From Candidatus Moraniibacteriota bacterium (GTDB lineage: Bacteria > Patescibacteriota > Minisyncoccia > Moranbacterales > UBA1568), in assembly GCA_049289395.1 (NCBI GenBank), contig JBATLQ010000045.1, positions 5,565 to 69,564 on the forward strand: 64,000 nt of DNA, in the 5' to 3' direction. The notes below the pieces were generated by a model, which searched no databases, had not been told where the DNA came from, and worked only from the letters and a program-made list of their open reading frames with translations. Positions 32,615 to 47,213 of the stretch are shown one piece after another (position 1 is the first letter of the stretch; each line of letters begins with the position of its first letter). A program made the translations under genes and the position numbers.

Positions 32615-32714
32615 GGCAAAATCTCTTCAAAAAACACTCCGGAAATCGGAGTGTTTTTTTAATGCGAAGCGCTAAGAGATACTGTCGACATTCCTTCCAT
32701 ACATCTCTCAATCA

Positions 32715-33599
32715 CTATCGCTTGAAGTCCGCACTGATTTTCCAAATACCTTTTTCACGGAATGCTGGGATCGTCTGATGCCTTGCCGCATTCGATATCC
32801 CTGACGCAGGCACATCATGCTTCTTCGCGTATTGAGCAAGAGTAATGATATCACCACCCTTCATATAGGTAATTCTTTTGTTCATCGATTCCATGAGAGC
32901 AAGCGTCACTACTCGCTCCATGGAGCTCGTATCACCGTCATTTCGATACTCTCCAAATGTTTTGTAATATTTCGATTTTTCCTTATCCCGAATAATAATC
33001 GATGGAAGTCCGAGTTGAAACATCTGATAATTCATGAGCACCCGACCAATGCGACCATTCCCATCGCAAAACGGATGGATTGTCTCGAAATCCAAATGGA
33101 ACTTCGCGATCTTATCCAAAAAATACGCGTCAATGTTTCCGGAGTATTCCAGAAGAAGCGAGCCGATCATATGTTCGACGCGCTCCGGTGCCGGTGCCAC
33201 ATGTGTCCCCACGCGGACATACTCTCCGGTCTTGCGAAATCGTCCCGCATACTCATCATTGATTCCGCCGAGGAGCATCTGATGGAGGAAGAGCATGAGC
33301 TCCTTATCAACACTCTTTTCCTGAGACTTGGTCCGGATATAATTCATAACCCGTGCCAAATTCTTCGCCTCGAAAATTTCACGGACACTGACATCCCGAG
33401 ACACCTCCATTTCCAAGAGAATCTTCTCCGTTTCCCGAAGCGTCAGCGTCGAATTCTCGATAGCATTCGAATTGTAGACACTCTCTGGAATTTCCGCTTC
33501 ATCCAAGAGGACAAGCAAGGACTCCTTCCCTTTGCGCAAGGTATCATATTCGTTCTTCAGTACCTGAAGACGCTTCCTGATATGTGCTGATGTAGCCAT
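32715..33599 (-). CDS. Fic-family protein (AMPylase/ Fic-DOC)
   Basis: 294 aa; canonical Fic motif HPFCDGNGRIGR. Confidence 0.8.
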   Translation of the reverse strand: MATSAHIRKRLQVLKNEYDTLRKGKESLLVLLDEAEIPESVYNSNAIENSTLTLRETEKILLEMEVSRDVSVREIFEAKNLARVMNYIRTKSQEKSVDKELMLFLHQMLLGGINDEYAGRFRKTGEYVRVGTHVAPAPERVEHMIGSLLLEYSGNIDAYFLDKIAKFHLDFETIHPFCDGNGRIGRVLMNYQMFQLGLPSIIIRDKEKSKYYKTFGEYRNDGDTSSMERVVTLALMESMNKRITYMKGGDIITLAQYAKKHDVPASGISNAARHQTIPAFREKGIWKISADFKR

Positions 33600-33604
33600 A
33601 TTTT

Positions 33605-33697
33605 TTCGTGAATTGTATGTATAAAGTATACATCATTCACGATTTATTGTCAATAATTCGTGAATTTTAGTGAAAAATAGACAATATTCACGATTTA
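33605..33697. promoter_or_regulatory. palindrome-rich operator/promoter region upstream of fic
   Basis: TTCGTGAAT (33605-33613, 33657-33665) paired with ATTCACGA (33643-33650, 33686-33693); inner palindromes TGTATA...TATACA and TTATTGTCAATAA. Confidence 0.45.
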
Positions 33698-33901
33698 TGG
33701 AACCAATTTCTCAGGTTTGTTTACAATCACCCATCTTTACCCCTCCAGAAAATTGTTTGGAAGCCTTGCCTCCAAACAGTCAAGATACATTTCCCCCCTT
33801 CTCTTCTTTGAGACGGAACTTCACGATCTTTCGGATCAGTGCGAGCGGGAGCTTCCCTCCGAGCGGGAATTGGAAATCGGATGGCACCCAACAACAGCTT
33901 T

Positions 33902-34261
33902 CTAGTTCTCCAAAGAATCCAAATACTCCTGTATCAATCCCCTGTCCTCATTTTCTTTCTCACCCTTGTAGTACAGCTCGATAAAATCTATCAGGACAAC
34001 TTCTCCGTTATCAATATTATGCGCGTAAATAATACGAAACAATGACTGCCCCTTCAGCGACGCGCAAGAAAGCCGCACCTTGAAAATAGTAATACATCCG
34101 TTATCCGAAATATGCAGCCTGTTCCAATGCTTGCTTCCATTGCCAAGTGGCAACACCCTCAAAACATCCTGGAGCTTGCTGAGATCGCTCTGCAATGATC
34201 TGTATTTCTTACTCAATCGCTTTAGTTCCTTCGAAAATTTCTGTGATTGCCGGAATTCCAT
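33902..34261 (-). CDS. type II toxin, RelE/ParE superfamily (HigB-like)
   Basis: ~120 aa from MEFRQSQKF; C-terminal RIIYAHNIDNGEVVLIDFIELYYKGEK pattern; 20 nt downstream of HTH-DUF4065 gene. Confidence 0.5.
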   Translation of the reverse strand: MEFRQSQKFSKELKRLSKKYRSLQSDLSKLQDVLRVLPLGNGSKHWNRLHISDNGCITIFKVRLSCASLKGQSLFRIIYAHNIDNGEVVLIDFIELYYKGEKENEDRGLIQEYLDSLEN

Positions 34262-34280
34262 ATGTCTGTTCGGTGCAGTA

Positions 34281-34997
34281 TTACAATTCATTATACTGTC
34301 GTACAGACAATTTCTCCGGGCGATAGAAAACATGATCGTACTCGATATTCTTCCCATCCTCTGCGGCAAACCACGGCGTATCCTCATGCGAAAGTACCGA
34401 GAGCTCCGCAGCACTCTTCTCTCCATATCGCGCCAGCACACTATCGATCATCGTCATTTCCTGAGCACTCAGACTGCTCAAGTCTGCATGGCGATGTGGC
34501 AGAAATTTCCTCTGCTCATAAGTAAAGTACGCACTCTTCACTTCTTCCAATTCTCCACTTTTCTTCATCTCCTCCACGACACTCACGAATTCCCTCGGCG
34601 TCGGACCATGATGATTCTTGATATAGGTCAGTCCCATGAGTTGATCCTCGTACTTCTCATAGTAATCAAAGTCGATGAAATAGAGGAGCTTATAGAGCAC
34701 AGTCATACCGACATTCGGCTTCCCTGCCGTCTTTTCCAAGACATACAGAAAAACCTGCTTGAATTTCTCAAGTTTCTTCTGCGGAATACTGACACGCATA
34801 TCCCCCTTCGGAGATACATGATCCCTCACGATACCGAAAATCTCTTGAATCTTCCATTCTTCCACCTTGGTCAATTTCCGCTCATTATTTTCAACCTTGG
34901 CCAAAGTCGGACGGGAAATATCCAAACGCTTCGCAAGCTCTCCCTGCGACATGCCATATTCTTCCCGCAATTTTCGTACATCAATTTTCTGGGACAT
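34281..34997 (-). CDS. antitoxin-like HTH (XRE) + DUF4065 (Panacea/SocA-like) domain protein
   Basis: N-terminal HTH MSQGELAKRLDISRPTLAKVENNER; DUF4065-like LYKLLYFIDFDYYEKYEDQLMGLTYIKNHHGP. Confidence 0.55.
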   Translation of the reverse strand: MSQKIDVRKLREEYGMSQGELAKRLDISRPTLAKVENNERKLTKVEEWKIQEIFGIVRDHVSPKGDMRVSIPQKKLEKFKQVFLYVLEKTAGKPNVGMTVLYKLLYFIDFDYYEKYEDQLMGLTYIKNHHGPTPREFVSVVEEMKKSGELEEVKSAYFTYEQRKFLPHRHADLSSLSAQEMTMIDSVLARYGEKSAAELSVLSHEDTPWFAAEDGKNIEYDHVFYRPEKLSVRQYNEL

Positions 34998-35188
34998 AAT
35001 ACTTTTTTTAGTACCTTAATAATACCACCCTTTCTATCACTCTGCAAAGAATTTGTCAATATATAGTAATAATTTACACAATTACTTTACAAAATAAACC
35101 TAATAATATACAATGATGCTGTCGAATGAGGGGGAACCCTCTCAACGGTCGGGTTCGGCTAATAAACACAATAATCCAAACAAACGGT

Positions 35189-35377
35189 ATGGCAATGTAT
35201 CGCCTCAAAAAAGATGCCAATAGACAATATTACTGGATTTTGCAATCTAGCGAAAATCGTAAGATTGTCGCTATGAGTAGCGAATCATACGATTCCAAGC
35301 AGGGAGCTCTCAACTCCATCAGCTGGACAAAAGCAAACGCAGACAAAGCGGGATTCGAAGATAATACTCAGCTTTAA
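35189..35377 (+). CDS. YegP/DUF1508-family small protein
   Basis: MAMYRLKKDANRQYYWILQSSENRKIVAMSSESYDSKQGALNSI matches UPF0339 repeat. Confidence 0.6.
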   Translation: MAMYRLKKDANRQYYWILQSSENRKIVAMSSESYDSKQGALNSISWTKANADKAGFEDNTQL

Positions 35378-35412
35378 ATTCGCTTCAAAGAGAAAAATGA
35401 AAATAAAAATCT

Positions 35413-35452
35413 AAAAAGAGGGCGTGTATTGAGACACGACCTCTTTTTTACT
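35413..35452 (+). terminator. intrinsic terminator
   Basis: AGAGGGCGTGT-attgag-ACACGACCTCT followed by TTTTTT. Confidence 0.55.
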
Positions 35453-35610
35453 TCCCTACCCCCACACTAAAGGCTTCTTGAAGAATGGATTGCTCGAGGC
35501 GGTCGAGCACGCCGGAGCAGAGGTATTCCTCATTCGCTTCTCCTTATGATATTCAGACATACGTTTCACTTACGAGTTACATATTTTGGTATGTAACTAC
35601 AAAAAGGAAC

Positions 35611-36021
35611 TCAATCACTCTTCCGATCTCCTATGACTTGTATATCTGTGACACGGATATTCTCCAGACACTTCGAGTCACCATAGTACTCGCAATCATC
35701 AGGCTCTTTCTCTCCTGTTATTTTAAATACACCGTTTTCATTTTCCCTCACATATTTTACATAATCATCAATCCTTTTTTCATCATCCATCTTTTCAATC
35801 ATTGCAAAGAACCATGGATGATCCTCAAACTCATCTAGTACCCTTCCTTGTTCGATATCATAGTAAGAGAATCGCACATCCCCCGATGTTGAAACTCTTG
35901 AAAGAACGCCATATCTTTCTACAAAAGAACTCCTCCCTGCATTATGTATATTCACCCACAAAATAGAAGCCGCAATAGCAACAAGAAGGAATATTGAAAT
36001 ATAGAGTGAATTTTTTTTCAT
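35611..36021 (-). CDS. hypothetical secreted/membrane-anchored protein
   Basis: signal-peptide-like MKKNSLYISIFLLVAIAASILW; last gene of minus-strand operon. Confidence 0.4.
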   Translation of the reverse strand: MKKNSLYISIFLLVAIAASILWVNIHNAGRSSFVERYGVLSRVSTSGDVRFSYYDIEQGRVLDEFEDHPWFFAMIEKMDDEKRIDDYVKYVRENENGVFKITGEKEPDDCEYYGDSKCLENIRVTDIQVIGDRKSD

Positions 36022-36025
36022 GATA

Positions 36026-36784
36026 TTATTCCATTTTGGATAAAACTTTAATTTCATTCGCCATCCTTATCCATTCTGCATTACTTATTCCATGTGCCAT
36101 TGGATGAGGTATTACAAAATAATTGATGCCTTCCTTTTTACAATAATGAAATCCCTCCGACTTCTTAAATTGACACTTCGCTATTTCAATCCAATGAGGA
36201 AGGTACATAAATGAACAGAAAATTACAGTGGTTGGTCGATGCTTGCTGATATATTTTTGATACAACTTAATCCTCATTGGCATTACCTCCTGAAAATACA
36301 CCCCTCGTGTCATCAAATAATCAATTTTAAAATTAAAATAAACCCAATCCAGCTCGCGTATTGAGCTCGATGGTAATGGCATTAGATCAAGAATACAATG
36401 ATTGCTATCTCGTCGACCAAATCTCGTTTTCTGATATTCTCTCACAATTTCAGTAGTCACAGATTGCTCCTCAAAGGCAAGCAACATGGTGATCAGCTTA
36501 CTCCAAGTTCTTTGAATAGGAGGTCGTTCCCCTAAAAAATATCTTATGTGATCTGGGACATCCGTCATGTCATCACAAATATCAACAACCAAACTATCCT
36601 TTGTTGCTTTGAAGCGAGGCTTCAGATCTTCTAATTCGCCAGCAAACCCCTCTTCCATACACACAAACCAAATATTTGAGTCAATATTTCCATAACCCAA
36701 AAAATTATTGATCCTATTTTCTATAAGTTCTTTCGAAATCATTGCTTTTTTGAAGAAATATTTTTCAATTCCACTTATGAACAC
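36026..36784 (-). CDS. hypothetical protein with uracil-DNA-glycosylase-fold-like motifs (divergent)
   Basis: GYGNIDSNIWFVCMEEGF resembles UDG family-4 motif GEGxpxArlMfVGEAPG; NHCILDLMPLP resembles NvVKCRPP; C-terminal VIPHPMAHGISN resembles HPSxLLRN; by-eye only. Confidence 0.3.
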   Translation of the reverse strand: MFISGIEKYFFKKAMISKELIENRINNFLGYGNIDSNIWFVCMEEGFAGELEDLKPRFKATKDSLVVDICDDMTDVPDHIRYFLGERPPIQRTWSKLITMLLAFEEQSVTTEIVREYQKTRFGRRDSNHCILDLMPLPSSSIRELDWVYFNFKIDYLMTRGVYFQEVMPMRIKLYQKYISKHRPTTVIFCSFMYLPHWIEIAKCQFKKSEGFHYCKKEGINYFVIPHPMAHGISNAEWIRMANEIKVLSKME

Positions 36785-36895
36785 ACGGATTCCGTGTTCG
36801 CCTCCCCTTGTAGTATTCGGACATAGTGGTTAGTGATAAAAAATGGTATCTAGCCTCTCTTCTATTTTTGGATTGTTGAACATAATTCTTCTTAT

Positions 36896-38887
36896 TTATC
36901 CTTTTGAGGTGATAGCCTCCTTCTTGAGACTTAGAATCCTATTCACAACCTTTTCGAGAGACGCACTGCTTTCCCCTGCTGCTTTTGCGCTAGTTATAAT
37001 ATCAGTAACTATATTCGGATTCTTTATTGCGTGTTTCTTCTTTGTTACTCCATACTTTTTCTGACATTCCACAAGAATCCTTTCAAATTCAACAGTGCCG
37101 ATTTCCTCACAAAGAGTGCTTTCAAGTTTGTCTTTAAAGCACGAAAATTTATCTTCAATATATGCTGGCCATTCCTCCTCAATACTACCGACCAATCTGA
37201 GCAATTTTTTATTCTCATCAGGATTCGCCTTTCCATCTGCTTTTCCACACAACTCACACGCTCCAGATGTCTCGCCTTTTCCATAATCGCCATCCCAAAC
37301 TATATATGTCGGTATTCCTAATTTTGTGAAAATTATGTACGGTCTATCTATATTCGTTTTTCCTCCACAAGGAATTATAGAAAATCCATCCCCCTCCAAT
37401 TCGTGCCCCATTGCTTTTGCGGTACCCAATATAGCCGCCCTATCATCTTCACCCTCAACAAGAATATTCGCATCAGCAAAAAATCCCTCATTCATCCAAG
37501 GCGTCATTATGGCGTGAAGCCTGGGAATCAAACTGGCTCCAGTATACTGTTGTCCGCGCTTCCCGTCAGCTTCCCAGCTAGCTAAAGCAACTTCATCTAG
37601 TGTCGTATGAATAACCTTTGTTATTTTCGGTTTCTCCACCTCGTTTACTAACTTACGAAAAAGCCTTATCTGGTCAATCCTATCGATGCCCACAAAATGA
37701 GGAGAGTGAGTACAATATATAATTTGAGTGTTATCGGCTACTCCTGGCATTTTTCCGTCTGCTAACTGTCTTAGTATTTTTGCCAAATGTCTCTGTCTAT
37801 TCGGATGCTGATAAATTTCTGGCTCCTCGATTGCCAAAATAAGCGTGGGTAAATCCGTTTCAGTTACTCCTTCATCGGTCTTTGCACTCTTAACTTGTTC
37901 CATTGCCAAATGCTGAAGTAGGGTCAAAATAAATGCTCGCTGTAGCCCGTGCCCGGTTTTTTCAACTGACGACTCAAATCCGTCTTCAATCAGCTTTATA
38001 TCAGCTTGTGGCATAGGCATAGTAATGCCGGCAAGTGGAAGCCAATTCAATCCAACTTGAGCATTTGGAACATAAATCTTCATCGTTTCAGTCATCTGTT
38101 TTTCTAGAACCTTCAATTCAGTAAGCTTTTCAGGATCCATTATTTCCTTATACTTTTCCTCGGTCTTATTTTTCAATTTAACATACTCCTCCTTTCTCAC
38201 AAGAACACTTCTTACAACCAAATCCATCAAGCGAGAAAACGTAGAGCTTTTTCCATCTTCAATATCAATACCCGCATTACGAACAGCAGGTATAAAGAGA
38301 AACTGCGAAAACTTTCCCAGATAACCCTTCGCCACGCTCTTAAAACCGAAAAATTGTCCGTCATCTCTCATACGAACACATTGTGTACGATTCTCATTCT
38401 CCCATTTATCCAACTCAATTACAGTTGTCTGATTCTTCCAATCCGGCAATCTCTGATATTTTTCATTTTTTTTTAATTCAACATATTTCTCTTTCTTGTC
38501 TCTCGCTGAAGAAGCATTCCTCACTGAAGCGAAATCTGGATTCTGCAAACTTGCACCGTGATACTTAAAACTCGGTTTACCATCAGTCCAATCAATTACA
38601 AGCTCAATAGTTAATTTGTCGTCCTGTAAATAAGAACCAAAAAGACGTTTTGCTTCTTCTGAAAGCTTTTTATATGTAACGGCTACGACTATAGGCGATG
38701 ATGTATCCTTATTATAATAATCATCCTGTTTAATGCTTTGAGAAAAAGCATAAAATATCTCAAGCGCCTTCAGGAAAGTCGACTTTCCTGTCCCATTTGC
38801 CCCAACCAATGCCGTCAGATCCTCCAAATAAACTTCTTCATCCAATAGCGATCTATAATTTTTAATTAAAACAGATTCAATCAACAT
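36896..38887 (-). CDS. OLD-family ATP-dependent nuclease (ABC-type ATPase + C-terminal Toprim)
   Basis: 663 aa; Walker A LVGANGTGKST, Walker B LILAIEEPEIYQHP, H-loop IIYCTHSPHF; C-terminal Toprim motifs ILVEGEDD and IVWDGDYGKGE. Confidence 0.7.
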   Translation of the reverse strand: MLIESVLIKNYRSLLDEEVYLEDLTALVGANGTGKSTFLKALEIFYAFSQSIKQDDYYNKDTSSPIVVAVTYKKLSEEAKRLFGSYLQDDKLTIELVIDWTDGKPSFKYHGASLQNPDFASVRNASSARDKKEKYVELKKNEKYQRLPDWKNQTTVIELDKWENENRTQCVRMRDDGQFFGFKSVAKGYLGKFSQFLFIPAVRNAGIDIEDGKSSTFSRLMDLVVRSVLVRKEEYVKLKNKTEEKYKEIMDPEKLTELKVLEKQMTETMKIYVPNAQVGLNWLPLAGITMPMPQADIKLIEDGFESSVEKTGHGLQRAFILTLLQHLAMEQVKSAKTDEGVTETDLPTLILAIEEPEIYQHPNRQRHLAKILRQLADGKMPGVADNTQIIYCTHSPHFVGIDRIDQIRLFRKLVNEVEKPKITKVIHTTLDEVALASWEADGKRGQQYTGASLIPRLHAIMTPWMNEGFFADANILVEGEDDRAAILGTAKAMGHELEGDGFSIIPCGGKTNIDRPYIIFTKLGIPTYIVWDGDYGKGETSGACELCGKADGKANPDENKKLLRLVGSIEEEWPAYIEDKFSCFKDKLESTLCEEIGTVEFERILVECQKKYGVTKKKHAIKNPNIVTDIITSAKAAGESSASLEKVVNRILSLKKEAITSKG

Positions 38888-38946
38888 ACATGAAAAATCA
38901 AAAAGGGATAAGTCTATTTGCTATATAAATTAAATCAATTAGTTTT

Positions 38947-39168
38947 TTAAAATTTGGATTGGTATCTTGGTTTATATTTGTTAATATAAGCATTCAAACC
39001 ATTATGCTCGCACGCTAATCTTTTCATATTTTCAATATGATTCGATCCTGCACTCATGTATGTATAGATATAAACTGATCCATCATGAAATTGGACTTTG
39101 ATATAGTCATTACCAATTTCAAAAGCATCTACATTTGAATCACCATCTCTATCATTATATGGTTGCAT
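38947..39168 (-). CDS. KTSC-domain small protein
   Basis: 73 aa; IKVQFHDGSVYIYTYMSAG matches KTSC pattern. Confidence 0.4.
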   Translation of the reverse strand: MQPYNDRDGDSNVDAFEIGNDYIKVQFHDGSVYIYTYMSAGSNHIENMKRLACEHNGLNAYINKYKPRYQSKF

Positions 39169-39182
39169 ATAATTTCTATTTA

Positions 39183-39911
39183 TTACGAAATGAATTTAGT
39201 GGTCGCTTCAACAAGCTTAACAAAGCATTGTTTTATATCAGTCCAATCATTACTATTTATCTCCACTTTGTCGCCATCATTATAATTTTTAATATTAGCA
39301 CTAAATACCCTTGTCGCACTTACAAATTTCTTATCTATAATACCTCCTTTATGCACCAACACATGCCTAAGTTCCAAATAAAAACATATCTTTTTCTCAA
39401 TCTCATCTTCCAAGGAAATATTTTTTGATAAATATTTTTCAAAATTTCTTTTTATTGCCTGAAAATCCTGAAAATTAGGCTTTACTTTTTCAAGAACAAG
39501 CCTGCCAAATCCACCCCGATAGGTAAGTTTATTTTTAACTAGTTCAGCCAAAGTAATTTTTATCCCTTCTAACTCTTTATTTTCCAGATTGATTCCATTG
39601 AAACCATTCAAAGCATTTTCAAAATACTTCTTCAGAGTCGCCTCTAAACTTGAAACTGCAAGGATACACATTTGCGAGTATATAACTTTAAAATTGTTTT
39701 CAATTGATCTATTGTTAATATTTTCCAGTCCGCTCTTCGCATTATCCAAAGCTATTTTCACAGTTGTTTGTATTCCAGAAGTATTAATCGCTACAGTCAA
39801 GGCTTGAACTGCCATATCTTTAATCAAACTTGGTGTCCGTTCAAGTTTATCGATATCAGCAAGTTCTTTTTTAAAATTCTTGAGGTAATCAGTCGTTGGC
39901 AATCTTGACAT
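39183..39911 (-). CDS. hypothetical protein with HEPN-like R-x4-H motif
   Basis: 242 aa, mostly helical; ELRHVLVHKGG fits HEPN Rx4-6H signature; first gene of operon. Confidence 0.35.
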   Translation of the reverse strand: MSRLPTTDYLKNFKKELADIDKLERTPSLIKDMAVQALTVAINTSGIQTTVKIALDNAKSGLENINNRSIENNFKVIYSQMCILAVSSLEATLKKYFENALNGFNGINLENKELEGIKITLAELVKNKLTYRGGFGRLVLEKVKPNFQDFQAIKRNFEKYLSKNISLEDEIEKKICFYLELRHVLVHKGGIIDKKFVSATRVFSANIKNYNDGDKVEINSNDWTDIKQCFVKLVEATTKFIS

Positions 39912-39963
39912 ATTTTTTTATACAAACATCCATTATAAAAATCCTTTTTAAACTCCTTTCTTA

Positions 39964-39994
39964 TGAAAACAAACACCCCGGAAGTCCGGGGTGA
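39964..39994 (-). terminator. intrinsic terminator (minus strand) separating DpnI-like operon from OLD operon
   Basis: perfect 9-bp stem CACCCCGGA-AGT-TCCGGGGTG; on minus strand followed by UUUGUUUUC. Confidence 0.5.
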
Positions 39995-40140
39995 TGGAAT
40001 AATCTTGCGAATATGGCTCTTTCCTTTCTTCTTTTTCTATTTAGGATGGGTTTTATTTTTTGTTAGTCCTAGCATACCACAACATGTGAAAAAATACAAG
40101 TGTCAAATCTTTTGAAAAATAAACAAATTTTCATACATAA

Positions 40141-40356
40141 TTATGAACCTGTCCAATCCTCTCTGCACTGTGCGCACCGTTCATTGCCAGTATGATCAAA
40201 ACAGTCAGTAAATTTGTTCGGCTCATATCTTTGCTCATCTTCATTCCAAAAAAACTCGTCATCAATGAGTGTCTCGACAAGCTTTCTTTCTGCTCCGCAA
40301 TGCTGGCAAGCATGCCTAGGAAAATTTTTTGTTTGTACATCCATATTCCCGATCAT
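40141..40356 (-). CDS. small zinc-ribbon protein (71 aa)
   Basis: CQHCG...CAQC Cys pairs; 15 nt downstream of DpnI-like gene. Confidence 0.35.
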   Translation of the reverse strand: MIGNMDVQTKNFPRHACQHCGAERKLVETLIDDEFFWNEDEQRYEPNKFTDCFDHTGNERCAQCREDWTGS

Positions 40357-40371
40357 TGATCGAAAACAAAT

Positions 40372-41139
40372 CTATGTCAAACGATACTGTCCATAACCAA
40401 CAAACTCCAGATAACCCTTATTCCTCAAAATCTGTAACTGTTGCCTTATTTTAGGTCTTATATTTTTGTTTTCAGGATGAATTATAGATAAATCGTACTC
40501 GAAAGCATACATATCCTGTAGGGTAAATTTCTTTTGATTGAGTGAATCAATACAATTCATAATATCCAAGATCCACCCTTTGCTATCCGATTTTTTAATT
40601 TTTTTCAAAAATAATGTCTTCTGCCATTTTTCCAGTACGCTCTTTTTATCCGTCTCTTTCCCATTTTCTACATAGAATATTTGTCCAGCCTTTGGAATCT
40701 TTGAGAATAAAATATTCGAGCCAATCCAGCCAGCGCGTCTGGCATTTTCTCTGAGTGGTTTCCTTTTTTCAATAATCTCGGAGATAAAAAAATGTTTCGG
40801 TATAACAAAAAAATCATACACCTTTGAGGCTTCAGCTATATACCCCATAAAAAAGAAATTTGGTTTTTCTGATGAATTGATTCTTTTGATCATTTGAGAA
40901 TAGGCTCCGGCGGAAACCTTTTTACCAATTTTCCCATTTTTAGATTTTAACTCAAAGTCTTCAACACATGTTTTACAATAAAAATCAGCAACTGGTTTAT
41001 TATTACCATAATTGTAAATACCATTGCCACAATTCGGACAATAAATCTCATGAAGCACCCATGCCTCACTTAAAACACGAGCTTTTTGAGAAACACTCCT
41101 ATACTGAATCGCTAATTTCGTATCAAAAAATAAATTCAT
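40372..41139 (-). CDS. DpnI-like (Dam-replacing family) methyl-directed restriction endonuclease
   Basis: 255 aa; SQKARVLSEAWVLHEIYCPNCGN, ADFYCKTCVEDFELKSK (PD-ExK-like with Zn ribbon), NFFFMGY, RRAGWIGSNI and C-terminal winged-helix-like IRQQLQILRNKGYLEF, as remembered for DpnI. Confidence 0.55.
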   Translation of the reverse strand: MNLFFDTKLAIQYRSVSQKARVLSEAWVLHEIYCPNCGNGIYNYGNNKPVADFYCKTCVEDFELKSKNGKIGKKVSAGAYSQMIKRINSSEKPNFFFMGYIAEASKVYDFFVIPKHFFISEIIEKRKPLRENARRAGWIGSNILFSKIPKAGQIFYVENGKETDKKSVLEKWQKTLFLKKIKKSDSKGWILDIMNCIDSLNQKKFTLQDMYAFEYDLSIIHPENKNIRPKIRQQLQILRNKGYLEFVGYGQYRLT

Positions 41140-41235
41140 AATTGATGATCAATAATCTCCACTGAAAACTCATTTCATAAATGAAATGGTGTCACTATGA
41201 CAAACAATCCTATTTGTCCAAGAACCAATCCATAA

Positions 41236-41694
41236 TCAGAGATTAATTTGATACTGCAGTCGCCTTGTCTTAATCCGCTGATTTAATTCTTCAGATGTCA
41301 ACATTGCGTACCCCTTGCTTTCCGGGTGAAGGCTGACGAAACAAAAACGGTACTGCTTACCCAGTTTATCTGCTAATCGAAACTCATTTTCTGTTGCGCC
41401 AAAGAAAAATCCATCAGGATTATTAACGAGTTTTTTCTGAGTTGTTTTAAGTTCAATCAATACAATCTGCTCAAATGGAACATCCATAATACTCATACCA
41501 CTTACCATTGGAAGAAGAACGAGATCAAATGCACGAGAAAATGTCATTGGCAAATCAAGGCGCCTCAAAATCTCCTTTCGTTCTTCTTTGCTTGGCTTCT
41601 TAAAGCGAGCATCTGATTCAAGTAAAAAATCAACCGCTGATGTCTCGGTTATATTATTCTTAATTGTTGCGCCATATGAATGTTGGTGTGCCAC
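41236..41694 (-). CDS. PD-(D/E)XK-like nuclease superfamily protein (152 aa)
   Basis: AFDLVLLP ... IVLIELKTT matches D...ExK core. Confidence 0.35.
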   Translation of the reverse strand: MAHQHSYGATIKNNITETSAVDFLLESDARFKKPSKEERKEILRRLDLPMTFSRAFDLVLLPMVSGMSIMDVPFEQIVLIELKTTQKKLVNNPDGFFFGATENEFRLADKLGKQYRFCFVSLHPESKGYAMLTSEELNQRIKTRRLQYQINL

Positions 41695-41937
41695 GATCTG
41701 ATTAGATCATACAAAAGCACCCAGATCAAGATCGCCACCAGAAAACTATTCCCCATAATAAAAATTCCCCCATTCTCCCACCCCAGTCGGAATAGCACAA
41801 GTTCCGACGGGAGAAACAAAAAAATCCCTTCTCGGTGGGAATTTCATCCTATTTTCTCTCCCCAGTGACCTTACATGTGGTGTGCCCCAGTTACATTCCG
41901 AATGATGTAACGGGGCAGGCGGGGTAAACCACCCTAT

Positions 41938-42474
41938 TTATTCAGCAACAAATCGAATCGAGATCTTTTTGTCCATATACTGTCGAAGGTGTCCGATGAG
42001 AGTCGCAGCGACCTCATTCATTTCCATACTTTCAACTTCTTTCAATATGGTAATTTCAGCCAAATCTTCGCTCGTCTCATCGTTGATAATCGTAATCACA
42101 CCAGGCCTCTTCCCTATGACGATAGATTTCAATACTCCTTTCTCTTTTTTGGTTATCTTCAATTCATCAACCATCATGCTGTATGTTTCTGCTGCTGTTT
42201 CATAATCCTTTTTCGACTCAACCAGCCCTGCTATCCTATTGACGGCTAAGCCATTCTTCATATGCTCACCCATTATTTTCGATAGTGAAAAAACCTCCTC
42301 ACGGGGAGCCTGCTTCAATTCCAATTCTTCGAGAGAAAGCCCCATCGCCAGCTGATATGAAACGAAAAGTTCCTCGCTACTGATATTGTTGCTTTTCGAA
42401 AAAGATATTATCTCTTCCAACTGCTTCTCTTGCGGATCATCTCCCGTCTTCGGAAACTCCATTGGATTTTTCAT
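41938..42474 (-). CDS. hypothetical protein (178 aa)
   Basis: ORF with coding-like composition, acidic; no family recognised. Confidence 0.4.
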   Translation of the reverse strand: MKNPMEFPKTGDDPQEKQLEEIISFSKSNNISSEELFVSYQLAMGLSLEELELKQAPREEVFSLSKIMGEHMKNGLAVNRIAGLVESKKDYETAAETYSMMVDELKITKKEKGVLKSIVIGKRPGVITIINDETSEDLAEITILKEVESMEMNEVAATLIGHLRQYMDKKISIRFVAE

Positions 42475-42697
42475 ACTATATTTGTTATTTCTTCCAATCC
42501 CGAATTACTACCCCACCGCGGACGCGGGTGACCACTACTTTTTGCTTCTCTCTCCATCCAAGCTCGCGGACGAGCTCAATCGGGAGCGTCAGCCCAATAG
42601 ACTTTCCACCGAGTTTGGTAAGTTTCCGAACGCTTTTATCCGTTGCTTGTTTTGGCATAATATTTTCTTTAGTTTATCGCCTCATTTTCAGTCCCCC

Positions 42698-42726
42698 TTG
42701 TCAATTTTGTCAATATTTGGTATATT
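42698..42726 (+). promoter_or_regulatory. sigma70-like promoter TTGTCA-17-TATATT
   Basis: TTGTCA 42698-42703, spacer attttgtcaatatttgg, TATATT 42721-42726. Confidence 0.5.
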
Positions 42727-42732
42727 CTAGTT

Positions 42733-42790
42733 GGTCGCGAGGAAACCCGCGCCCATCAAAATGGAGTCTCCTTGGGAGGCTCTTTTTTGA
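42733..42790 (+). ncRNA. candidate ~55-nt small RNA (promoter-to-terminator unit), antisense to 3' end of DUF3800 gene
   Basis: promoter above; terminator hairpin GAGUCUCC-UUG-GGAGGCUC (one G.U) then UUUUUU at 42765-42790; a GCGAGG/CCCGCG 5' hairpin. Confidence 0.3.
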
Positions 42791-43565
42791 TATTCTCCTT
42801 GATATTCTCCAAAGTTAATGGAAAAACTTTCAATCCAATTCCTAAGCAATCCCCTTTTACCTTCAAGAGCTTTGGATAAGTGATATCACTATAGCGCCAA
42901 TATTCTTCTGGCTTTTTCCCATACTCAAAAATATGATACACGGGATAGCAATAGAGATCAGCTATTTGTATTCCGACAGTATCCTCGGAAGTCGAATACA
43001 GAAGCTTTTCAACGATATTCGGACACTTTTTCCATATATCCCCATCCCTCCATCGCATCATATGATGAATATCCTTAAGAGAATCACCGATAAATGATTT
43101 TTCAACTGTTCCGACACGAGGATCAATCACACAGAGACCGAGCGAATTCCGCTCTTTCAAAAATCGCTGAAATCTTTCGAGGAGATAGAGGTATGCTATC
43201 TCATATGGATTCTGTGATGGGTATTGTTTCCAATAAGCATCCTTATTAATCACTATGGCTATCAATGTGATTGGCAGGGAAACCAAGTATGCCTTTATAT
43301 CAGCCTCAAGTTGATTATACATTTCTCGATCATGCAGTTTGAGCGGCGATTCCTGTTCCAAGTCGGGATTCGCATACCGAAGGAAGTTTGATTTGATTTC
43401 AAGATCTTCATTCTGAAAATATTTCTTTTTGATTACACGGAGATCTTCTTCAACTTTCACGCGGTCCGAATCATTGATGATGCATCCAGTCAAAACCAAA
43501 AACTGCTTTCCTTTTTGAGAAAGCGGTATAGTATCACCCGATTCATCTATATACATGAGATACAT
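42756..43565 (-). CDS. DUF3800-family protein
   Basis: 269 aa; N-terminal MYLMYIDESGD hallmark of DUF3800. Confidence 0.6.
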   Translation of the reverse strand: MYLMYIDESGDTIPLSQKGKQFLVLTGCIINDSDRVKVEEDLRVIKKKYFQNEDLEIKSNFLRYANPDLEQESPLKLHDREMYNQLEADIKAYLVSLPITLIAIVINKDAYWKQYPSQNPYEIAYLYLLERFQRFLKERNSLGLCVIDPRVGTVEKSFIGDSLKDIHHMMRWRDGDIWKKCPNIVEKLLYSTSEDTVGIQIADLYCYPVYHIFEYGKKPEEYWRYSDITYPKLLKVKGDCLGIGLKVFPLTLENIKENIKKEPPKETPF

Positions 43566-43723
43566 GGATTTCTACGATATGCGTCTACCAATATAATTAC
43601 ATACCTCGTTACATATATCCTATCACCTCCCCATTCCCACGGCAATTTACGCCGAGTCCCTTTATGAAGGGAATTTCATCGCTCTTGAAAGCAAAAATCC
43701 GCCACTCGGGCGGATATTTTCCA

Positions 43724-44020
43724 CTAATCCATGCTCACCTTGATCTCGCGTATCGCTTCGAGGCCGAGCATGGAATTCGTTTTTTCGGCGATATTCTTTC
43801 TATTGAGCCAGATTTCACTCGCCCAGAGGGAACTCCGGAAGCCGACGAAGAGCTTTTTCTCCTTATAGAACCTCGGTTCTATATTTTCCTCACCCCTCGT
43901 CCCATATTCCGCGTGGATCACCTTATTGAAAACCGAGAAAATCGTCTTTTCATCGATTTCTTTCAGCTCTTTCGGTGCTTGAAAGTTCTTTTTTTCGAGA
44001 TATTGTCTGAGATCAAGCAT
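43724..44020 (-). CDS. DUF721/DciA-like small protein
   Basis: 98 aa; RSSLWASEIWLNRKNIAEKTNSMLGLEAIREIKV resembles DUF721; immediately downstream of dnaN. Confidence 0.5.
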   Translation of the reverse strand: MLDLRQYLEKKNFQAPKELKEIDEKTIFSVFNKVIHAEYGTRGEENIEPRFYKEKKLFVGFRSSLWASEIWLNRKNIAEKTNSMLGLEAIREIKVSMD

Positions 44021-44033
44021 ACAAGTGGCTCCA

Positions 44034-45185
44034 TTATTTCCGAATAGGCATCGCTATATAGAGGAAATGCTGTTTTTTCTCACCATCCACATCGTTCATA
44101 CGGAAAGCGACCGGCGTATGGGGAGTATTACACTGGAGCGTCACCTTCTCACCCTGGAGGATATTGAGCCCGTCGAGGATATATTTCGGATTAAACGAGA
44201 TCGCCATATCCGTATCACCCTGTATATCCGCCGAAAGAGTGACTTTATTCTCTCCAATCTCCTGAGAGAGCGATGCGACCACTACTTTCCCCTCCTGTGG
44301 AAGAAGAGTAAAAATAATTTCTCCTGCTGATTGGGAAGAAAAGACACTTCCCACCCGAACCGCCCGCAAGAGCTCCTCTCGGTCGAATACCACTTGGGAG
44401 GAAAACTTCTGTGGAATAATCTGCTTATAATCAGGATATTTCCCATTGATGAGTCGGGATATGATCTGTATTTCATCTACCTGGAAGAATATCTGATTCT
44501 CATGTAAGGCTATTTTCACCCACTCGCTCTCGGGAGTGATGCTCCGCTGAAGCTCCTGGAGAGTCGCCGCGGGGATGATGAGTGATGGGTGACTCTCGAT
44601 AAATGTGTGGTATTTTTCATTTTCACCCATATTTTCCAGAGGAAATATCTCCTCGCCGAGGCGAAAGCTATCCGTCGCCGCAAAATGAATTTCTTTCTCA
44701 AAGAAGAATGCATGTACTCCTGTGAGTTCGAGGCGACTATCCGTCAGTGAAACACATGGGAGAAGCCTTGAAAAGGCATTTTTCAGGGATTGTGCTGGGA
44801 GATTGAAGAAATATTCTCCATCATACTGTGGGATGAGAGGGAAGTCCTTCGCATCAAGCCCTTTTATTTTCATCTCATACCCACCACTCACGATTTTCAG
44901 GAAACTTCCCGTGGTCTCGAAAGAGAGGACATCCTGAAGAGGGAGATTGTGGATAAAATTCGAAAGGAGTTTGGCGGGAATCGTAATCCGACCCTCTTCC
45001 TCAATTTTCCCACCGACATAGGCGATAACACCGATTTCGAGGTTGGTTGCAGAGAGTTTGAGCCGCCCGCCTTTTGTTTCCAAAAGAAAGTTTCCGAGAA
45101 TCGGCAGAGTTGATTGCCTCCCGACGACTCGTTCGAGGATATTGATCGCATGAATGATATTTTCTTGGGTACAGAGGAGTTTCAT
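44034..45185 (-). CDS. dnaN: DNA polymerase III beta sliding clamp
   Basis: 383 aa; MKLLCTQENIIHAINILERVVGRQSTLPILGNFLLE N-terminus typical of DnaN; three-domain length. Confidence 0.9.
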   Translation of the reverse strand: MKLLCTQENIIHAINILERVVGRQSTLPILGNFLLETKGGRLKLSATNLEIGVIAYVGGKIEEEGRITIPAKLLSNFIHNLPLQDVLSFETTGSFLKIVSGGYEMKIKGLDAKDFPLIPQYDGEYFFNLPAQSLKNAFSRLLPCVSLTDSRLELTGVHAFFFEKEIHFAATDSFRLGEEIFPLENMGENEKYHTFIESHPSLIIPAATLQELQRSITPESEWVKIALHENQIFFQVDEIQIISRLINGKYPDYKQIIPQKFSSQVVFDREELLRAVRVGSVFSSQSAGEIIFTLLPQEGKVVVASLSQEIGENKVTLSADIQGDTDMAISFNPKYILDGLNILQGEKVTLQCNTPHTPVAFRMNDVDGEKKQHFLYIAMPIRK

Positions 45186-45444
45186 AGGAGTATCTTTAAG
45201 AGTAAGGTTTCTTCTTTAATTATTTAAAAAAATTATTTATTACTATTAGGGGTGTGAATTGGTGGATAAGTGGATTATATGGCTTATGATAAGGATGAAA
45301 AAAGATGGGAGTAGGGAGGGTATTGGTGTGTAGGGGATGTGGGTTAGGTGTGATGGATGGGAATAGGTATGGGAATGATTTTTTTATACACGATACAAGG
45401 GGAGTTTAGGAGGGGTTATTCAGGGTTATACACATATTATACCG
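45186..45444. other. candidate oriC (dnaA-dnaN intergenic): AT-rich unwinding element plus DnaA-box-like motifs
   Basis: AT-rich ttaattatttaaaaaaattatttattactatt (45207-45243); GGTGGATAAG and GTGGATTAT close to TGTGGATAA; G/T-rich degenerate repeats; gene-orientation switch around this locus. Confidence 0.5.
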
Positions 45445-46875: not shown

Positions 46876-47015
46876 AGGGAATACAAGGGAATGAAATATA
46901 GGTAAATATATCATGACGGCACAATTCTATCGAGTGGGGCGGTGCATATCCGGTGTATAAGTAGGGAGGATGCGTGTGTCTGCCCGCATTGCTACGCAAA
47001 GCGTTGCGGGCGGGA

Positions 47016-47044
47016 TTGACACATTCGGAGAAAAGGCGTATTCT
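47016..47044 (+). promoter_or_regulatory. sigma70-like promoter for rpmH TTGACA-17-TATTCT
   Basis: TTGACA 47016-47021, 17-nt spacer, TATTCT 47039-47044, ~28 nt upstream of rpmH ATG. Confidence 0.55.
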
Positions 47045-47072
47045 AGTCCTGTTACTCATTGACGGTATTTGT

Positions 47073-47213
47073 ATGGCTACCAAGAGAACCTATCAACCGA
47101 AAAAACTTCGCAGGGCACGACGGCATGGCTTTCTCGAGCGGATGTCGACTCCAGGAGGGCGGGCGGTTGTCGCCAAGCGACGGCGGGAAGGACGCAAGAA
47201 ACTGACCGTTTGA
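47073..47213 (+). CDS. rpmH: 50S ribosomal protein L34
   Basis: [46 protein letters not shown] near-canonical L34. Confidence 0.9.

What the first reader, a model, noticed from the sequence alone, without database searches (positions are those of the whole stretch)
35611..39911. Candidate undescribed defence operon: HEPN-like, KTSC, OLD-family ATPase/Toprim nuclease, divergent UDG-fold-like protein (plus secreted protein)
Five co-directional minus-strand genes with 4-111 nt gaps, bounded by terminators at 39964-39994 and ~35413-35452. The central 663-aa protein has a complete ABC-type ATPase and a Toprim nuclease domain (OLD/GajA/AriAB-like). Known OLD-containing systems pair it with a UvrD helicase (Gabija/class 2 OLD) or nothing (class 1). 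Here the partners are different. One is a 242-aa protein with a HEPN-like Rx4H motif (ELRHVLVHKGG). One is a KTSC mini-protein. One is a 252-aa protein whose motifs (GYGNIDSNIWFVCMEEGF, NHCILDLMPLP, VIPHPMAHG) echo the three signature motifs of family-4 uracil-DNA glycosylases, but with the catalytic GEAPG altered. DNA-glycosylase-based anti-phage defence has been reported. A glycosylase-like sensor of modified phage DNA coupled to an OLD nuclease and a HEPN RNase would be a new architecture.
Basis: inference. Interest (0 to 1): 0.8.

Follow-up and report, generated by a model that had tools for sequence, protein, structure and literature searches.

The report
Mosaic defence island, not one operon
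The five genes are real, and most of their predicted folds hold up (an OLD nuclease, a HEPN RNase-like protein, a uracil-DNA-glycosylase-fold protein), but they are separate defence cassettes placed side by side in a variable island next to the replication origin, not one new co-evolved system.

Summary
In detail: there are five co-directional minus-strand genes with gaps of 14, 59, 111/153 and 4 nt, and a strong terminator lies upstream.

Most fold guesses are supported:
- The 663-aa protein is an intact ATPase+Toprim OLD nuclease. Its nearest solved relative is class 1 TsOLD.
- The 73-aa protein is only weakly KTSC-like.

The "single new system" reading is not supported:
- None of 80 loci with OLD relatives carries a HEPN or UDG-like homologue.
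- None of about 20 HEPN contexts or 6 UDG-like contexts carries OLD.
- A sister strain keeps the UDG-like gene plus the membrane-protein gene at the same locus but lacks HEPN, the small protein and OLD.
- Another contig keeps HEPN plus the small protein (92% nt identity), followed by unrelated genes.

Recombination breakpoints bracket the OLD gene.

Two by-products deserve attention. Canonical KTSC genes sit directly upstream of OLD in 23 of 69 relatives. The UDG-like protein belongs to a large unnamed family (about 1,700 clusters) found beside restriction and mobile-element genes. It is a Brig1/Brig2-like candidate, untested.

The parts
39974..39993 (-). Intrinsic-terminator-like hairpin (CACCCCGG-ACTT-CCGGGGTG + TTTGTTTTCA) that ends the upstream DpnI-like/67-aa unit and precedes gene A
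39183..39911 (-). Gene A: 242-aa all-helical HEPN-fold protein with an invariant Rx4H motif (R182, H187). It belongs to an unnamed Patescibacteria family usually embedded in type I/III R-M operons
   Evidence: no Pfam, NCBIfam or PADLOC hit
38947..39168 (-). Gene B: 73-aa small protein, weakly KTSC-like. It occupies the slot directly upstream of OLD that canonical KTSC genes occupy in a third of OLD relatives
36896..38887 (-). Gene C: 663-aa OLD-family nuclease (ABC ATPase + Toprim), class 1 by gene context, with all catalytic motifs intact
36765..36824 (-). Relic of the 5' end of a PDDEXK_1 gene (MSEYYKGRRTRNPCVHKWN*). It lies just inside the left end of the D-E cassette and contains a short hairpin
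36026..36742 (-). Gene D: 238-aa UDG-superfamily-fold protein (252 aa if the GTG at 36784 is used). Family-wide invariants are G16, W25 and E30 ('GMEEG' after strand 1); H213 ('PHP') is conserved in at least 90%
35611..36021 (-). Gene E: 136-aa protein with one N-terminal hydrophobic segment (signal anchor or signal peptide). It is found next to D only in close relatives
35423..35438 (.). Weak bidirectional hairpin downstream of E, between E and the convergent DUF1508 gene
32615..43727 (.). Variable low-GC defence island between the conserved PBP gene and dnaN-DciA (origin-proximal). It holds Fic, the SocA/Panacea pair, DUF1508, E, D, OLD, B, A, a DpnI-like REase, 152-aa and 178-aa proteins, an AbrB-like protein and DUF3800

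Best explanation
The region is part of a hypervariable, horizontally acquired defence island beside the replication origin (dnaA-dnaN-DciA) of a Candidatus Moraniibacteriota (Patescibacteria) genome. The five genes are at least three independently mobile cassettes that happen to be co-directional. They may be co-transcribed.

1. A is a HEPN (Rx4H) protein of a family that is normally a 'guest' gene inside type I/III restriction-modification operons. It travels with the small protein B. Inferred mechanism: a latent RNase that cuts cellular or phage RNA as a back-up, abortive-infection layer.

2. C is a class 1-type OLD nuclease. Inferred mechanism: an ATP-binding dimer that nicks or degrades phage DNA through its two-metal Toprim site, as shown for P2 Old, TsOLD and Vc OLD. 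B sits in the position that canonical KTSC proteins hold upstream of many relatives of this OLD. B may therefore modulate OLD.

3. D is a single-domain UDG-fold enzyme, accompanied in close relatives by the membrane-anchored protein E. Inferred mechanism: like Brig1 and Brig2, it excises a non-canonical base from phage DNA. That would leave abasic sites that block replication.

Shown here: the folds, the conserved motifs, the gene contexts and the recombination breakpoints. Not shown: any enzymatic activity, any phage protection, or any functional coupling between cassettes.
For: Source and setting:
- An identical locus occurs in GCA_049663265.1 between dnaN-DciA and a PBP gene.
- An identical B protein is named Candidatus Moraniibacteriota by NCBI.
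- There is a GC trough and a GC-skew turn at about 44 kb.

Modularity:
- Sister-strain contig L127 has flanks 95-98% identical in nt. It keeps D (94%) and E at the same place, but has HTH-M78/68-aa/Mrr_cat instead of window 36826-43656. Homology resumes at about 36825.
- L001 homology also starts at 36831.
- L014 shares 40362-38954 (92% nt; small Zn-ribbon ORF, terminator, A, B). The match breaks at B's stop codon and is followed by unrelated 315-aa and 201-aa genes.
- 0 of 80 OLD-relative loci (33-73% identity) have A or D.
- A-family loci have HsdR, Res, PIN_8, TIR or other genes downstream instead.
- D-family loci lie beside type I R-M, Mrr, GmrSD-HNH, C5-MTase/MutH-like genes, serine recombinases or conjugation genes.

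Component identities.

KTSC-OLD link: 23 of 69 loci have a PF13619 gene directly upstream on the same strand.

Precedent for single-gene UDG-fold defence enzymes in AT-rich islands: PMC11078745 and bioRxiv 10.1101/2025.10.29.685425. Precedent for class 1 OLD acting alone: PMC12392090, PMC13261556 and PMC10568477. Precedent for HEPN genes embedded in R-M operons: PMC3710099.
Against: - A-B-C are tightly spaced (14 and 59 nt) with no terminator between them, and there is only a non-canonical hairpin before D. All five genes could be one transcript, so functional cross-talk cannot be excluded.
- B travels with A, yet it occupies the KTSC slot of OLD. That is either coincidence or a sign that A-B-OLD is a newly assembled unit.
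- Sampling of D contexts is small (6 distinct places besides the window) although the family is large.
- The window's D has C28 and D119 where the wider family has G28 and E119. Its activity is therefore less certain than for the family consensus.
- No experiment supports any activity.
Confidence: 0.72

Rival explanations
1. One reading: all four or five genes form one integrated new defence system. In it, the UDG-like protein senses modified phage DNA and activates or feeds the OLD nuclease and the HEPN RNase.
For: - The genes are co-directional and tightly spaced, bounded upstream by a strong terminator.
- The fold predictions are correct.
- Abasic sites or nicks made by a glycosylase would be plausible entry points for an exonuclease (inference).
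Against: - There is no co-occurrence in 80 OLD loci, about 20 A contexts and 6 D contexts.
- A sister strain has D-E without A-B-OLD, and L014 has A-B without OLD or D-E.
- Breakpoints lie in both intergenic regions flanking OLD.
- The C-D gap of 111-153 nt contains a relic of another gene.
Confidence: 0.06
2. A-B-OLD is a functional three-gene unit, with D-E separate. HEPN A and the KTSC-like B would be accessory 'guest' genes that couple functionally to whichever nuclease or motor gene lies downstream (HsdR, Res, PIN, and here OLD). This is analogous to PrrC being held in check by its host type I R-M enzyme.
For: - In most A loci examined, A lies 0-15 nt upstream of, or overlapping, a nuclease or motor gene on the same strand.
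- B relatives lie directly upstream of HsdR, a PDC-S06/AAA_13 ATPase or another large protein.
- Canonical KTSC precedes OLD in 23 of 69 relatives.
- No terminator lies between A, B and OLD.
- The PrrC paradigm is described in PMC3710099.
Against: - The A-B-OLD combination is seen only in this genome (L017 and L018 are the same sequence).
- The 92%-identical A-B block in L014 is followed by unrelated genes.
- No physical or genetic interaction data exist.
- B's relation to KTSC is weak.
Confidence: 0.15
3. D is a housekeeping base-excision-repair glycosylase of a reduced Patescibacteria genome, not a defence gene. Its position in the island would be incidental.
For: - D has a UDG fold with a conserved acidic residue after strand 1 and a His in the last motif.
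- Small genomes still need uracil repair (general knowledge).
Against: - D lies in the low-GC variable island.
- Relatives sit next to R-M, Mrr, GmrSD, serine recombinases and conjugation genes.
- D (66% identity) diverges much faster than the adjacent E (90%) between L001 and the window.
- No Pfam UDG hit reaches threshold.
- The four conserved Cys expected for a family-4 Fe-S cluster are absent.
Confidence: 0.1

Closest known systems
Class 1 OLD family nucleases (P2 Old, Thermus scotoductus OLD PDB 6P74, Vibrio cholerae Vc OLD, E. coli YbjD)
   Same: - N-terminal ABC ATPase plus C-terminal Toprim in one polypeptide.
- No downstream UvrD-like helicase and no adjacent reverse transcriptase.
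- 6P74 is the only PDB chain matched by sequence (2e-22).
- Walker A, signature-like GHGLQR, Walker B IEEPE, THSP, and the Toprim EGE.D and WD.D motifs are all conserved.
   Different: - At 663 aa it is longer than TsOLD (528 aa).
- It lies in a dense defence island, whereas class 1 was described as single genes away from other defence genes (PMC10568477).
- It is preceded by a KTSC-like small gene, and a third of its relatives are preceded by canonical KTSC. I found no mention of this feature in the papers searched.
Gabija (class 2 OLD GajA + GajB) and PARIS (AriA/AriB, class 4)
   Same: The ATPase and Toprim modules are homologous (PADLOC GajA models up to 4e-31; AriA 2e-50 over the ATPase part).
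   Different: - No GajB/UvrD-like helicase is adjacent.
- ATPase and Toprim are fused rather than split as in AriA/AriB.
- The best PADLOC model is 'Old', not GajA.
Brig1 and Brig2 (single-gene UDG-fold anti-phage DNA glycosylases)
   Same: - Located in an AT-rich defence island beside restriction genes.
- No detectable similarity to housekeeping UDG families at Pfam threshold.
- A local motif resemblance: D-family 'CLLELxPLPSP' against Brig1 'ILNFELYPWHSP', which contains the essential E147.
   Different: - Not detectably homologous to Brig1 in sequence: no HMM hit, and hhalign E 0.21 over 30 columns.
- The substrate is unknown and the activity untested.
- The window's copy has Asp at the position aligned with Brig1 E147.
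HEPN proteins embedded in R-M operons (DUF4145, Abi_C/AbiD-F, PrrC/RloC paradigm; Anantharaman et al. 2013)
   Same: - An Rx4H motif on a four-helix HEPN core.
- The same genomic niche: A relatives sit between hsdS and hsdR, or between mod and res, often right beside DUF4145 and Abi_C genes.
   Different: - No match to any Pfam, NCBIfam or PADLOC HEPN model.
- About 110 extra N-terminal helical residues.
- The family was seen almost only in Patescibacteria.
- Here it lies upstream of an OLD nuclease instead of an R-M subunit.
KTSC domain (PF13619)
   Same: B has the same size and the central 'h-x-V-x-F-x-D/G-G-x-h-Y-x-Y' hairpin. The hhalign alignment covers the whole domain (58 columns, E 5.8e-4). 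B occupies the same position upstream of an ABC-type defence ATPase. In L124, a B relative lies next to a true KTSC gene.
   Different: - It is below Pfam detection for all 14 family members.
- It lacks the conserved 'SSN..S.GYD' and 'VP...Y..L..A.SKG.YF' signatures of the canonical domain.

Membership tests
OLD family nuclease | N-terminal ABC-type ATPase (Walker A/B, signature, H-loop) plus C-terminal Toprim domain with acidic metal-binding motifs | tested here: met
   Pfam AAA_15 2.2e-46 and OLD-like_TOPRIM 5.6e-18. PADLOC Old 5.1e-55. The motifs are conserved in a 71-sequence alignment.
Class 1 OLD | No UvrD/PcrA-like helicase immediately downstream, and no retron RT/ncRNA adjacent (PMC7049728, PMC10568477, PMC12392090) | tested here: met
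   The downstream gene is the UDG-fold D, and the upstream genes are B and A. No helicase or RT domain was found among the neighbours scanned. The only PDB sequence hit is class 1 TsOLD.
Class 1 OLD | Occurs as a single gene not proximal to other defence genes (descriptive trait in PMC10568477) | tested here: not met
   It lies in a defence island with a DpnI-like REase, HEPN, UDG-like, SocA/Panacea and Fic genes. 23 of 69 relatives carry KTSC upstream.
Gabija (class 2 OLD) | GajB UvrD-like helicase encoded next to GajA | tested here: not met
   None of the ten island proteins scanned (36026-43565 and 34281-34997) has a helicase domain.
PARIS (class 4 OLD) | ATPase (AriA) and Toprim (AriB) encoded as separate proteins | tested here: not met
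   Both domains are in one 663-aa ORF.
HEPN superfamily (gene A) | Rx4-6H motif conserved across the family | tested here: met
   R182 and H187 (R-HVLV-H) are invariant in 58 sequences.
HEPN superfamily (gene A) | All-alpha HEPN helical-bundle fold | tested here: met
   [not shown]
HEPN superfamily (gene A) | Metal-independent RNase activity | not testable with these tools
   This requires biochemistry.
UDG superfamily (gene D) | Alpha/beta UDG fold | tested here: met
   [not shown]
UDG superfamily (gene D) | Motif A after strand 1 (e.g. GQDPY/GEAPG/GMNPG) and motif B with catalytic His (HPSPLS-type) | tested here: inconclusive
   The family has 'GMEEG' (E30 invariant; the window reads CMEEG) after strand 1, and 'PHPxAxG' (H213 in at least 90%) after the last strand. 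Equivalence to the catalytic positions was inferred from secondary-structure order, not from a residue-level superposition.
UDG superfamily (gene D) | Match to Pfam PF03167 at the gathering threshold | tested here: not met
   The window protein has no hit. 4 of 126 family members give weak hits, best E 0.0034.
   [not shown]
Brig1 family | Detectable sequence homology to Brig1 | tested here: not met
   hmmsearch of the D-family profile against Brig1 gives no hit. hhalign gives E 0.21, probability 0.3%. The Brig1 sequence was taken from the supplement of PMC11078745 (a machine-read PDF that may contain errors).
KTSC domain PF13619 (gene B) | Match to the Pfam model | tested here: not met
   No hit for B or any of 14 family members even at E<=10.
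KTSC domain PF13619 (gene B) | Profile-profile similarity to bona fide KTSC proteins | tested here: inconclusive
   hhalign of the B family against 17 KTSC proteins: E 5.8e-4, 58 columns, probability 29%.
Single multi-gene defence system (A+B+C+D) | Conserved co-occurrence of the component genes in unrelated genomes | tested here: not met
   there is no locus other than the window's own sequence (L017/L018) with OLD together with A or D.

The most novel reading that the evidence does not exclude
Two things in this locus could be new, independently of the rejected operon model.

(i) D represents a large family of UDG-fold enzymes: about 1,700 clusters at 50% identity, with no Pfam or NCBIfam model and no annotation. 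Members sit next to restriction enzymes, including modification-dependent ones (Mrr, GmrSD, DpnI-like), and next to recombinases. The family may act as anti-phage glycosylases against an as yet unknown modified base.

(ii) KTSC or KTSC-like mini-proteins may be dedicated partners (regulators or sensors) of a clade of 'class 1' OLD nucleases and of other ABC-type defence ATPases. That would define a two-gene OLD subclass, and A-B-OLD could be one functional variant of it.
Probability: 0.35. Interest if true: 0.6.

Novelty: new variant of a known kind. Interest (0 to 1): 0.4.

Why it matters
As posed, a new four-component system coupling a glycosylase sensor to OLD and HEPN effectors, the finding does not hold. 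That saves cloning effort on a chimeric 'operon'.

The locus still matters for three reasons:
- It is a clean natural example of cassette shuffling in an origin-proximal defence hotspot of an ultra-small Patescibacteria genome.
- It points to a widespread, unnamed UDG-fold family that could extend the Brig1/Brig2 principle (base excision as immunity) to new phage DNA modifications.
- It reveals a recurrent KTSC-OLD gene pair. This bears on the open question of whether and how class 1 OLD nucleases are regulated (raised in PMC10568477).

Tried and rejected
- Pfam, NCBIfam, PADLOC and PHROGs scans of A, D and E gave nothing usable. The weak hits (PaaA-like_N for E, NOV_C for the 152-aa neighbour) were ignored because they are below threshold.
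- B: Pfam KTSC was not detected even at E<=10 for the whole family. The PDB sequence search gave only a chance hit. PADLOC PDC-M49B at 8e-4 was not followed further, because canonical KTSC proteins and the L124 B relative do not hit any PADLOC model.
- D profile against PDB sequences gave only chance hits.
- D against Brig1 by HMM and hhalign showed no significant relation. Brig2 and the integron UDG-like sequences could not be retrieved because the supplement tables were truncated.
- tblastn of D against annotated plasmids and phage genomes found no match.
- IMG/VR scans found no OLD relatives and no A relatives, and two D relatives.
- The AFDB fold library was unavailable.
- Cluster look-up of 10 D-family representatives returned no names or taxa.
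- No tRNA genes and no Rfam matches were found in the window, so there is no tRNA integration site or riboswitch to explain the island.
- The promoter scan is uninformative: 21 sites against 19.3±4.6 expected. I did not infer internal promoters.
- The small 56-65-aa ORFs preceding A in Saccharibacteria are not B or KTSC relatives.

Full report
**Observation**

ORF listing confirms five co-directional minus-strand genes:
- A, 39183-39911 (242 aa)
- B, 38947-39168 (73 aa)
- C, 36896-38887 (663 aa)
- D, 36026-36784 (252 aa from a GTG)
- E, 35611-36057

The gaps are 14 nt (A-B), 59 nt (B-C), 111 nt (C-D) and 4 nt (D-E). The last figure assumes E starts at M13 (36021), as called in the identical public contig.

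All eight first-pass homologues of D align from the internal Met, and seven of them start there. D therefore more probably starts at 36742 (238 aa), which makes the C-D spacer 153 nt.

The upstream terminator is strong: 39993-39974, an 8-bp stem with 7 GC pairs and a T-run. The downstream one (35423-35438) is a weak 5-bp hairpin. The region lies in a GC trough of 0.31-0.42, against about 0.45-0.56 in the flanks.

**Source and setting**

The OLD protein and the whole gene order recur identically in GCA_049663265.1 (L017) and in one read-assembly contig (L018). NCBI names a protein identical to B as Candidatus Moraniibacteriota.

In L017 the block lies between rpmH-dnaA-dnaN-DciA and a class A PBP gene. 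The cumulative GC skew of the window turns at about 44 kb. This is an origin-proximal island.

Its other genes are also of defence or toxin type:
- DUF3800
- an AbrB/MazE-like 57-aa protein plus a 178-aa protein
- a DpnI-like methyl-directed restriction enzyme (Pfam DpnI 2e-74; PADLOC mREase_II 2e-105)
- DUF1508
- an Xre-SocA/Panacea antitoxin with a downstream gene
- Fic

**Gene C**

- Pfam: AAA_15 (2e-46) and OLD-like_TOPRIM (6e-18).
- PADLOC: Old (5e-55), AriA (ATPase part, 2e-50) and weaker GajA models.
- The only PDB chain found by sequence is 6P74, the class 1 OLD of Thermus scotoductus (2e-22).
- In an alignment with 70 full-length relatives, these motifs are conserved: Walker A (G.NG.GKS), GHGLQR, IEEPE.YQHP, THSP, the Toprim LVEGEdD motif and WD.D.
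- No helicase or reverse transcriptase flanks it. By the published context rule it is class 1 (PMC10568477, PMC12392090).

**Gene A**

No profile library recognises it. It has 108 homologue clusters. In 58 aligned sequences, R182 and H187 (R-HVLV-H) are invariant.

**Gene D**

No profile library recognises it. The model is confident (pLDDT 92.2).

An exhaustive profile search shows the family is large:
- 1,688 representatives at E<=1e-3 and 1,049 at E<=1e-10.
- In 126 diverse members, G16, W25 and E30 are invariant.
- G28, E119, L120, P122-L123-P124 and H213 are at least 90% conserved.

This gives a 'WFIGMEEGG' motif right after strand 1 and a 'PHPxAxG' motif after the last strand. UDGs carry their motifs A and B at the same places in the fold (inference from secondary-structure order).

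Only 4 of 126 members touch Pfam UDG, and weakly (best E 0.0034). There is no set of conserved cysteines for a family-4 Fe-S cluster.

The window copy deviates from the family consensus at two of these positions: C28 and D119.

**Genes B and E**

B has 12 homologue clusters. It resembles KTSC only in profile-profile comparison (E 5.8e-4 over 58 columns, probability 29%). Pfam does not detect KTSC in any family member.

E has one N-terminal hydrophobic segment.

**Do the genes belong together?**

D homologues occur in these places:
- After a type I R-M operon, followed by an E homologue (L001-L004). There D is 66% identical and E 90%.
- Alone inside a conjugative-element-like stretch with Replic_Relax, a TrwB-like ATPase and a resolvase.
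- In a third context without E (L007).
- In L127, the same chromosomal locus of a sister strain.
- In two IMG/VR contigs beside a large serine recombinase. One has C5-methylase/MutH-like and SNF2 genes, the other GmrSD-HNH, and both carry an N6 methylase.

None of these has OLD or A.

A homologues are almost all from Patescibacteria. They sit:
- between hsdS and hsdR (L009: DUF4145-B-A-HsdR);
- between mod and res (Saccharibacteria: Mod-DUF4145-Abi_C-small ORF-A-Res);
- before a PIN_8 protein, a TIR protein or other genes.

None has OLD or D.

Conversely, 80 metagenomic loci encode full-length relatives of the OLD (33-73% identity). They contain no A or D homologue, even with family HMMs at E<=1 over all ORFs of 40 aa or more.

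**Breakpoints**

At the DNA level:
- L127 matches the window at 95-98% in dnaN-DciA (45278-43728), in D-E-DUF1508-SocA (36825-33906) and in the PBP gene (32614-30514).
- Between these blocks, L127 replaces window 36826-43656 with an HTH-M78 protein, a 68-aa protein and an Mrr-type nuclease. It also lacks Fic.
- L001 homology also begins at 36831.
- L014 matches 40362-38954 at 92%. This covers a 67-aa Zn-ribbon ORF, the terminator, A and B. The match stops at B's stop codon and continues with unrelated 315-aa and 201-aa genes.
- L014 then shows a 61-nt match to window 36849-36789. This is the 5' end of a PDDEXK_1 gene, of which the window keeps only a 19-codon relic.

The OLD gene (roughly 38953-36850) is therefore bracketed by two independent recombination junctions. 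This is the strongest evidence that A-B, OLD and D-E are separate cassettes.

**An unexpected regularity**

In 23 of the 69 OLD-relative loci with enough upstream sequence, the gene directly upstream on the same strand (gap 3-20 nt) is a roughly 70-aa canonical KTSC protein (Pfam PF13619, 6.5e-27 for the one scanned). In the window, B occupies exactly this slot.

B relatives elsewhere lie directly upstream of:
- HsdR (L122, without A);
- a PDC-S06/AAA_13 ABC ATPase, next to a true KTSC gene (L124);
- another large protein (L126).

I found no paper in the held library linking KTSC to OLD.

**Mechanism (inferred)**

- OLD would act as other class 1 enzymes do, nicking or 5'-3' degrading phage DNA through a two-metal Toprim site under ATPase control (PMC7049728, PMC12392090).
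- A would be a latent HEPN RNase of the kind long noted inside R-M operons. These are thought to act as a suicide or dormancy back-up when the DNA-level barrier is disabled (PMC3710099).
- D would excise a non-canonical base from phage DNA, as do Brig1 (alpha-glucosyl-hmC) and Brig2 (modified thymidines). Both are single-gene UDG-fold defences in AT-rich islands.

The repeated neighbourhood of D relatives with modification-dependent nucleases (Mrr, GmrSD, and DpnI-like here) fits a role against modified DNA, but this is inference.

D is not a Brig1 homologue by sequence. Only a local resemblance around Brig1's essential E147 was seen: 'ILNFELYPWHSP' against 'CLLELxPLPSP'.

**Verdict**

The integrated-system interpretation is not supported. 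What is present is a mosaic defence island made of known kinds of parts.

Two leads are worth recording: the KTSC-OLD pairing, and a large unnamed UDG-fold family.

Confidence in the mosaic reading is about 0.7. The main residual alternative (about 0.15) is that A-B-OLD is a functional unit in which guest genes couple to the downstream nuclease.

Noticed in passing
L042-L121 (80 metagenome loci); window 38947-39168 for the equivalent slot: Canonical KTSC (PF13619) genes of about 70 aa lie directly upstream, on the same strand (gap 3-20 nt), of OLD relatives in 23 of 69 loci. The pairing is not mentioned in the OLD or KTSC papers I could search.
   Followed up: partly
window 36765-36824 (minus strand); L014 10618-10678; L001 10299-11102: The OLD-D spacer holds a 19-codon relic (MSEYYKGRRTRNPCVHKWN*) of the 5' end of a PDDEXK_1 gene that is intact in L014 and L001. 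It lies just inside the left edge of the D-E cassette, which starts at about 36825-36831 in L001 and L127.
   Followed up: partly
window ~43700-47200: The island abuts DciA, dnaN, dnaA and rpmH (mapped from the identical contig L017), and the cumulative GC skew turns at about 44 kb. The defence hotspot therefore sits next to the replication origin. The sister strain L127 has different cargo at the same site.
   Followed up: partly
window 40372-41139: A DpnI-like methyl-directed type IIM restriction enzyme (Pfam DpnI 2e-74 plus DpnI_C; PADLOC mREase_II 2e-105) lies immediately upstream of the block. It is a modification-dependent nuclease close to the putative modified-base glycosylase.
   Followed up: no
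window 40141-40356: A 71-aa Cys-rich (Zn-ribbon-like) ORF upstream of the terminator is conserved together with the A-B block in L014 (92% nt over 40362-38954). There it is a 67-aa gene.
   Followed up: no
window 41938-42658: An AbrB/MazE-like 57-aa gene (42485-42658) is followed by a 178-aa gene of unknown function. This looks like a toxin-antitoxin-type pair. Related AbrB-like genes recur near A homologues in L013, L014 and L020.
   Followed up: no
window 33902-34997 and 32715-33599: An Xre-HTH/SocA-Panacea antitoxin gene has a downstream small gene and a neighbouring Fic gene. Fic is absent from the otherwise syntenic sister contig L127. Fic genes also accompany A homologues inside R-M operons of other Patescibacteria (L009, L011, L024, L030, L122).
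   Followed up: no
L001 8001-9129 versus window 35611-36742: Within the D-E cassette, E is 90% identical but D only 66% identical between the two contigs. The glycosylase-like gene diverges much faster than its neighbour, or has been exchanged.
   Followed up: no
L011, L012, L025, L027-L029, L032 (upstream of the A homologue): In Saccharibacteria a conserved 56-65-aa ORF (…VRKNQTT…ENPGFPDFVEV) overlaps the start of the HEPN gene by 4 nt. It is unrelated to B or KTSC and may be an alternative small partner.
   Followed up: partly
L020 8747-10000; L013 7747-8997: The PIN_8 proteins directly downstream of A homologues (about 416 aa) carry a C-terminal 'RNRIIHGE' Rx4H-like motif in L020. This suggests a PIN-HEPN fusion next to the HEPN gene.
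   Followed up: no
L063, L065, L071, L073, L118, L119 (downstream of OLD); L112 and L061: Some OLD relatives overlap by 4 nt with a roughly 1,000-aa protein; the one scanned (L073) has a DUF1156 domain. L112 has a reverse transcriptase downstream of its OLD, and L061 carries a protein of the same cluster. This OLD clade therefore spans several context types.
   Followed up: no
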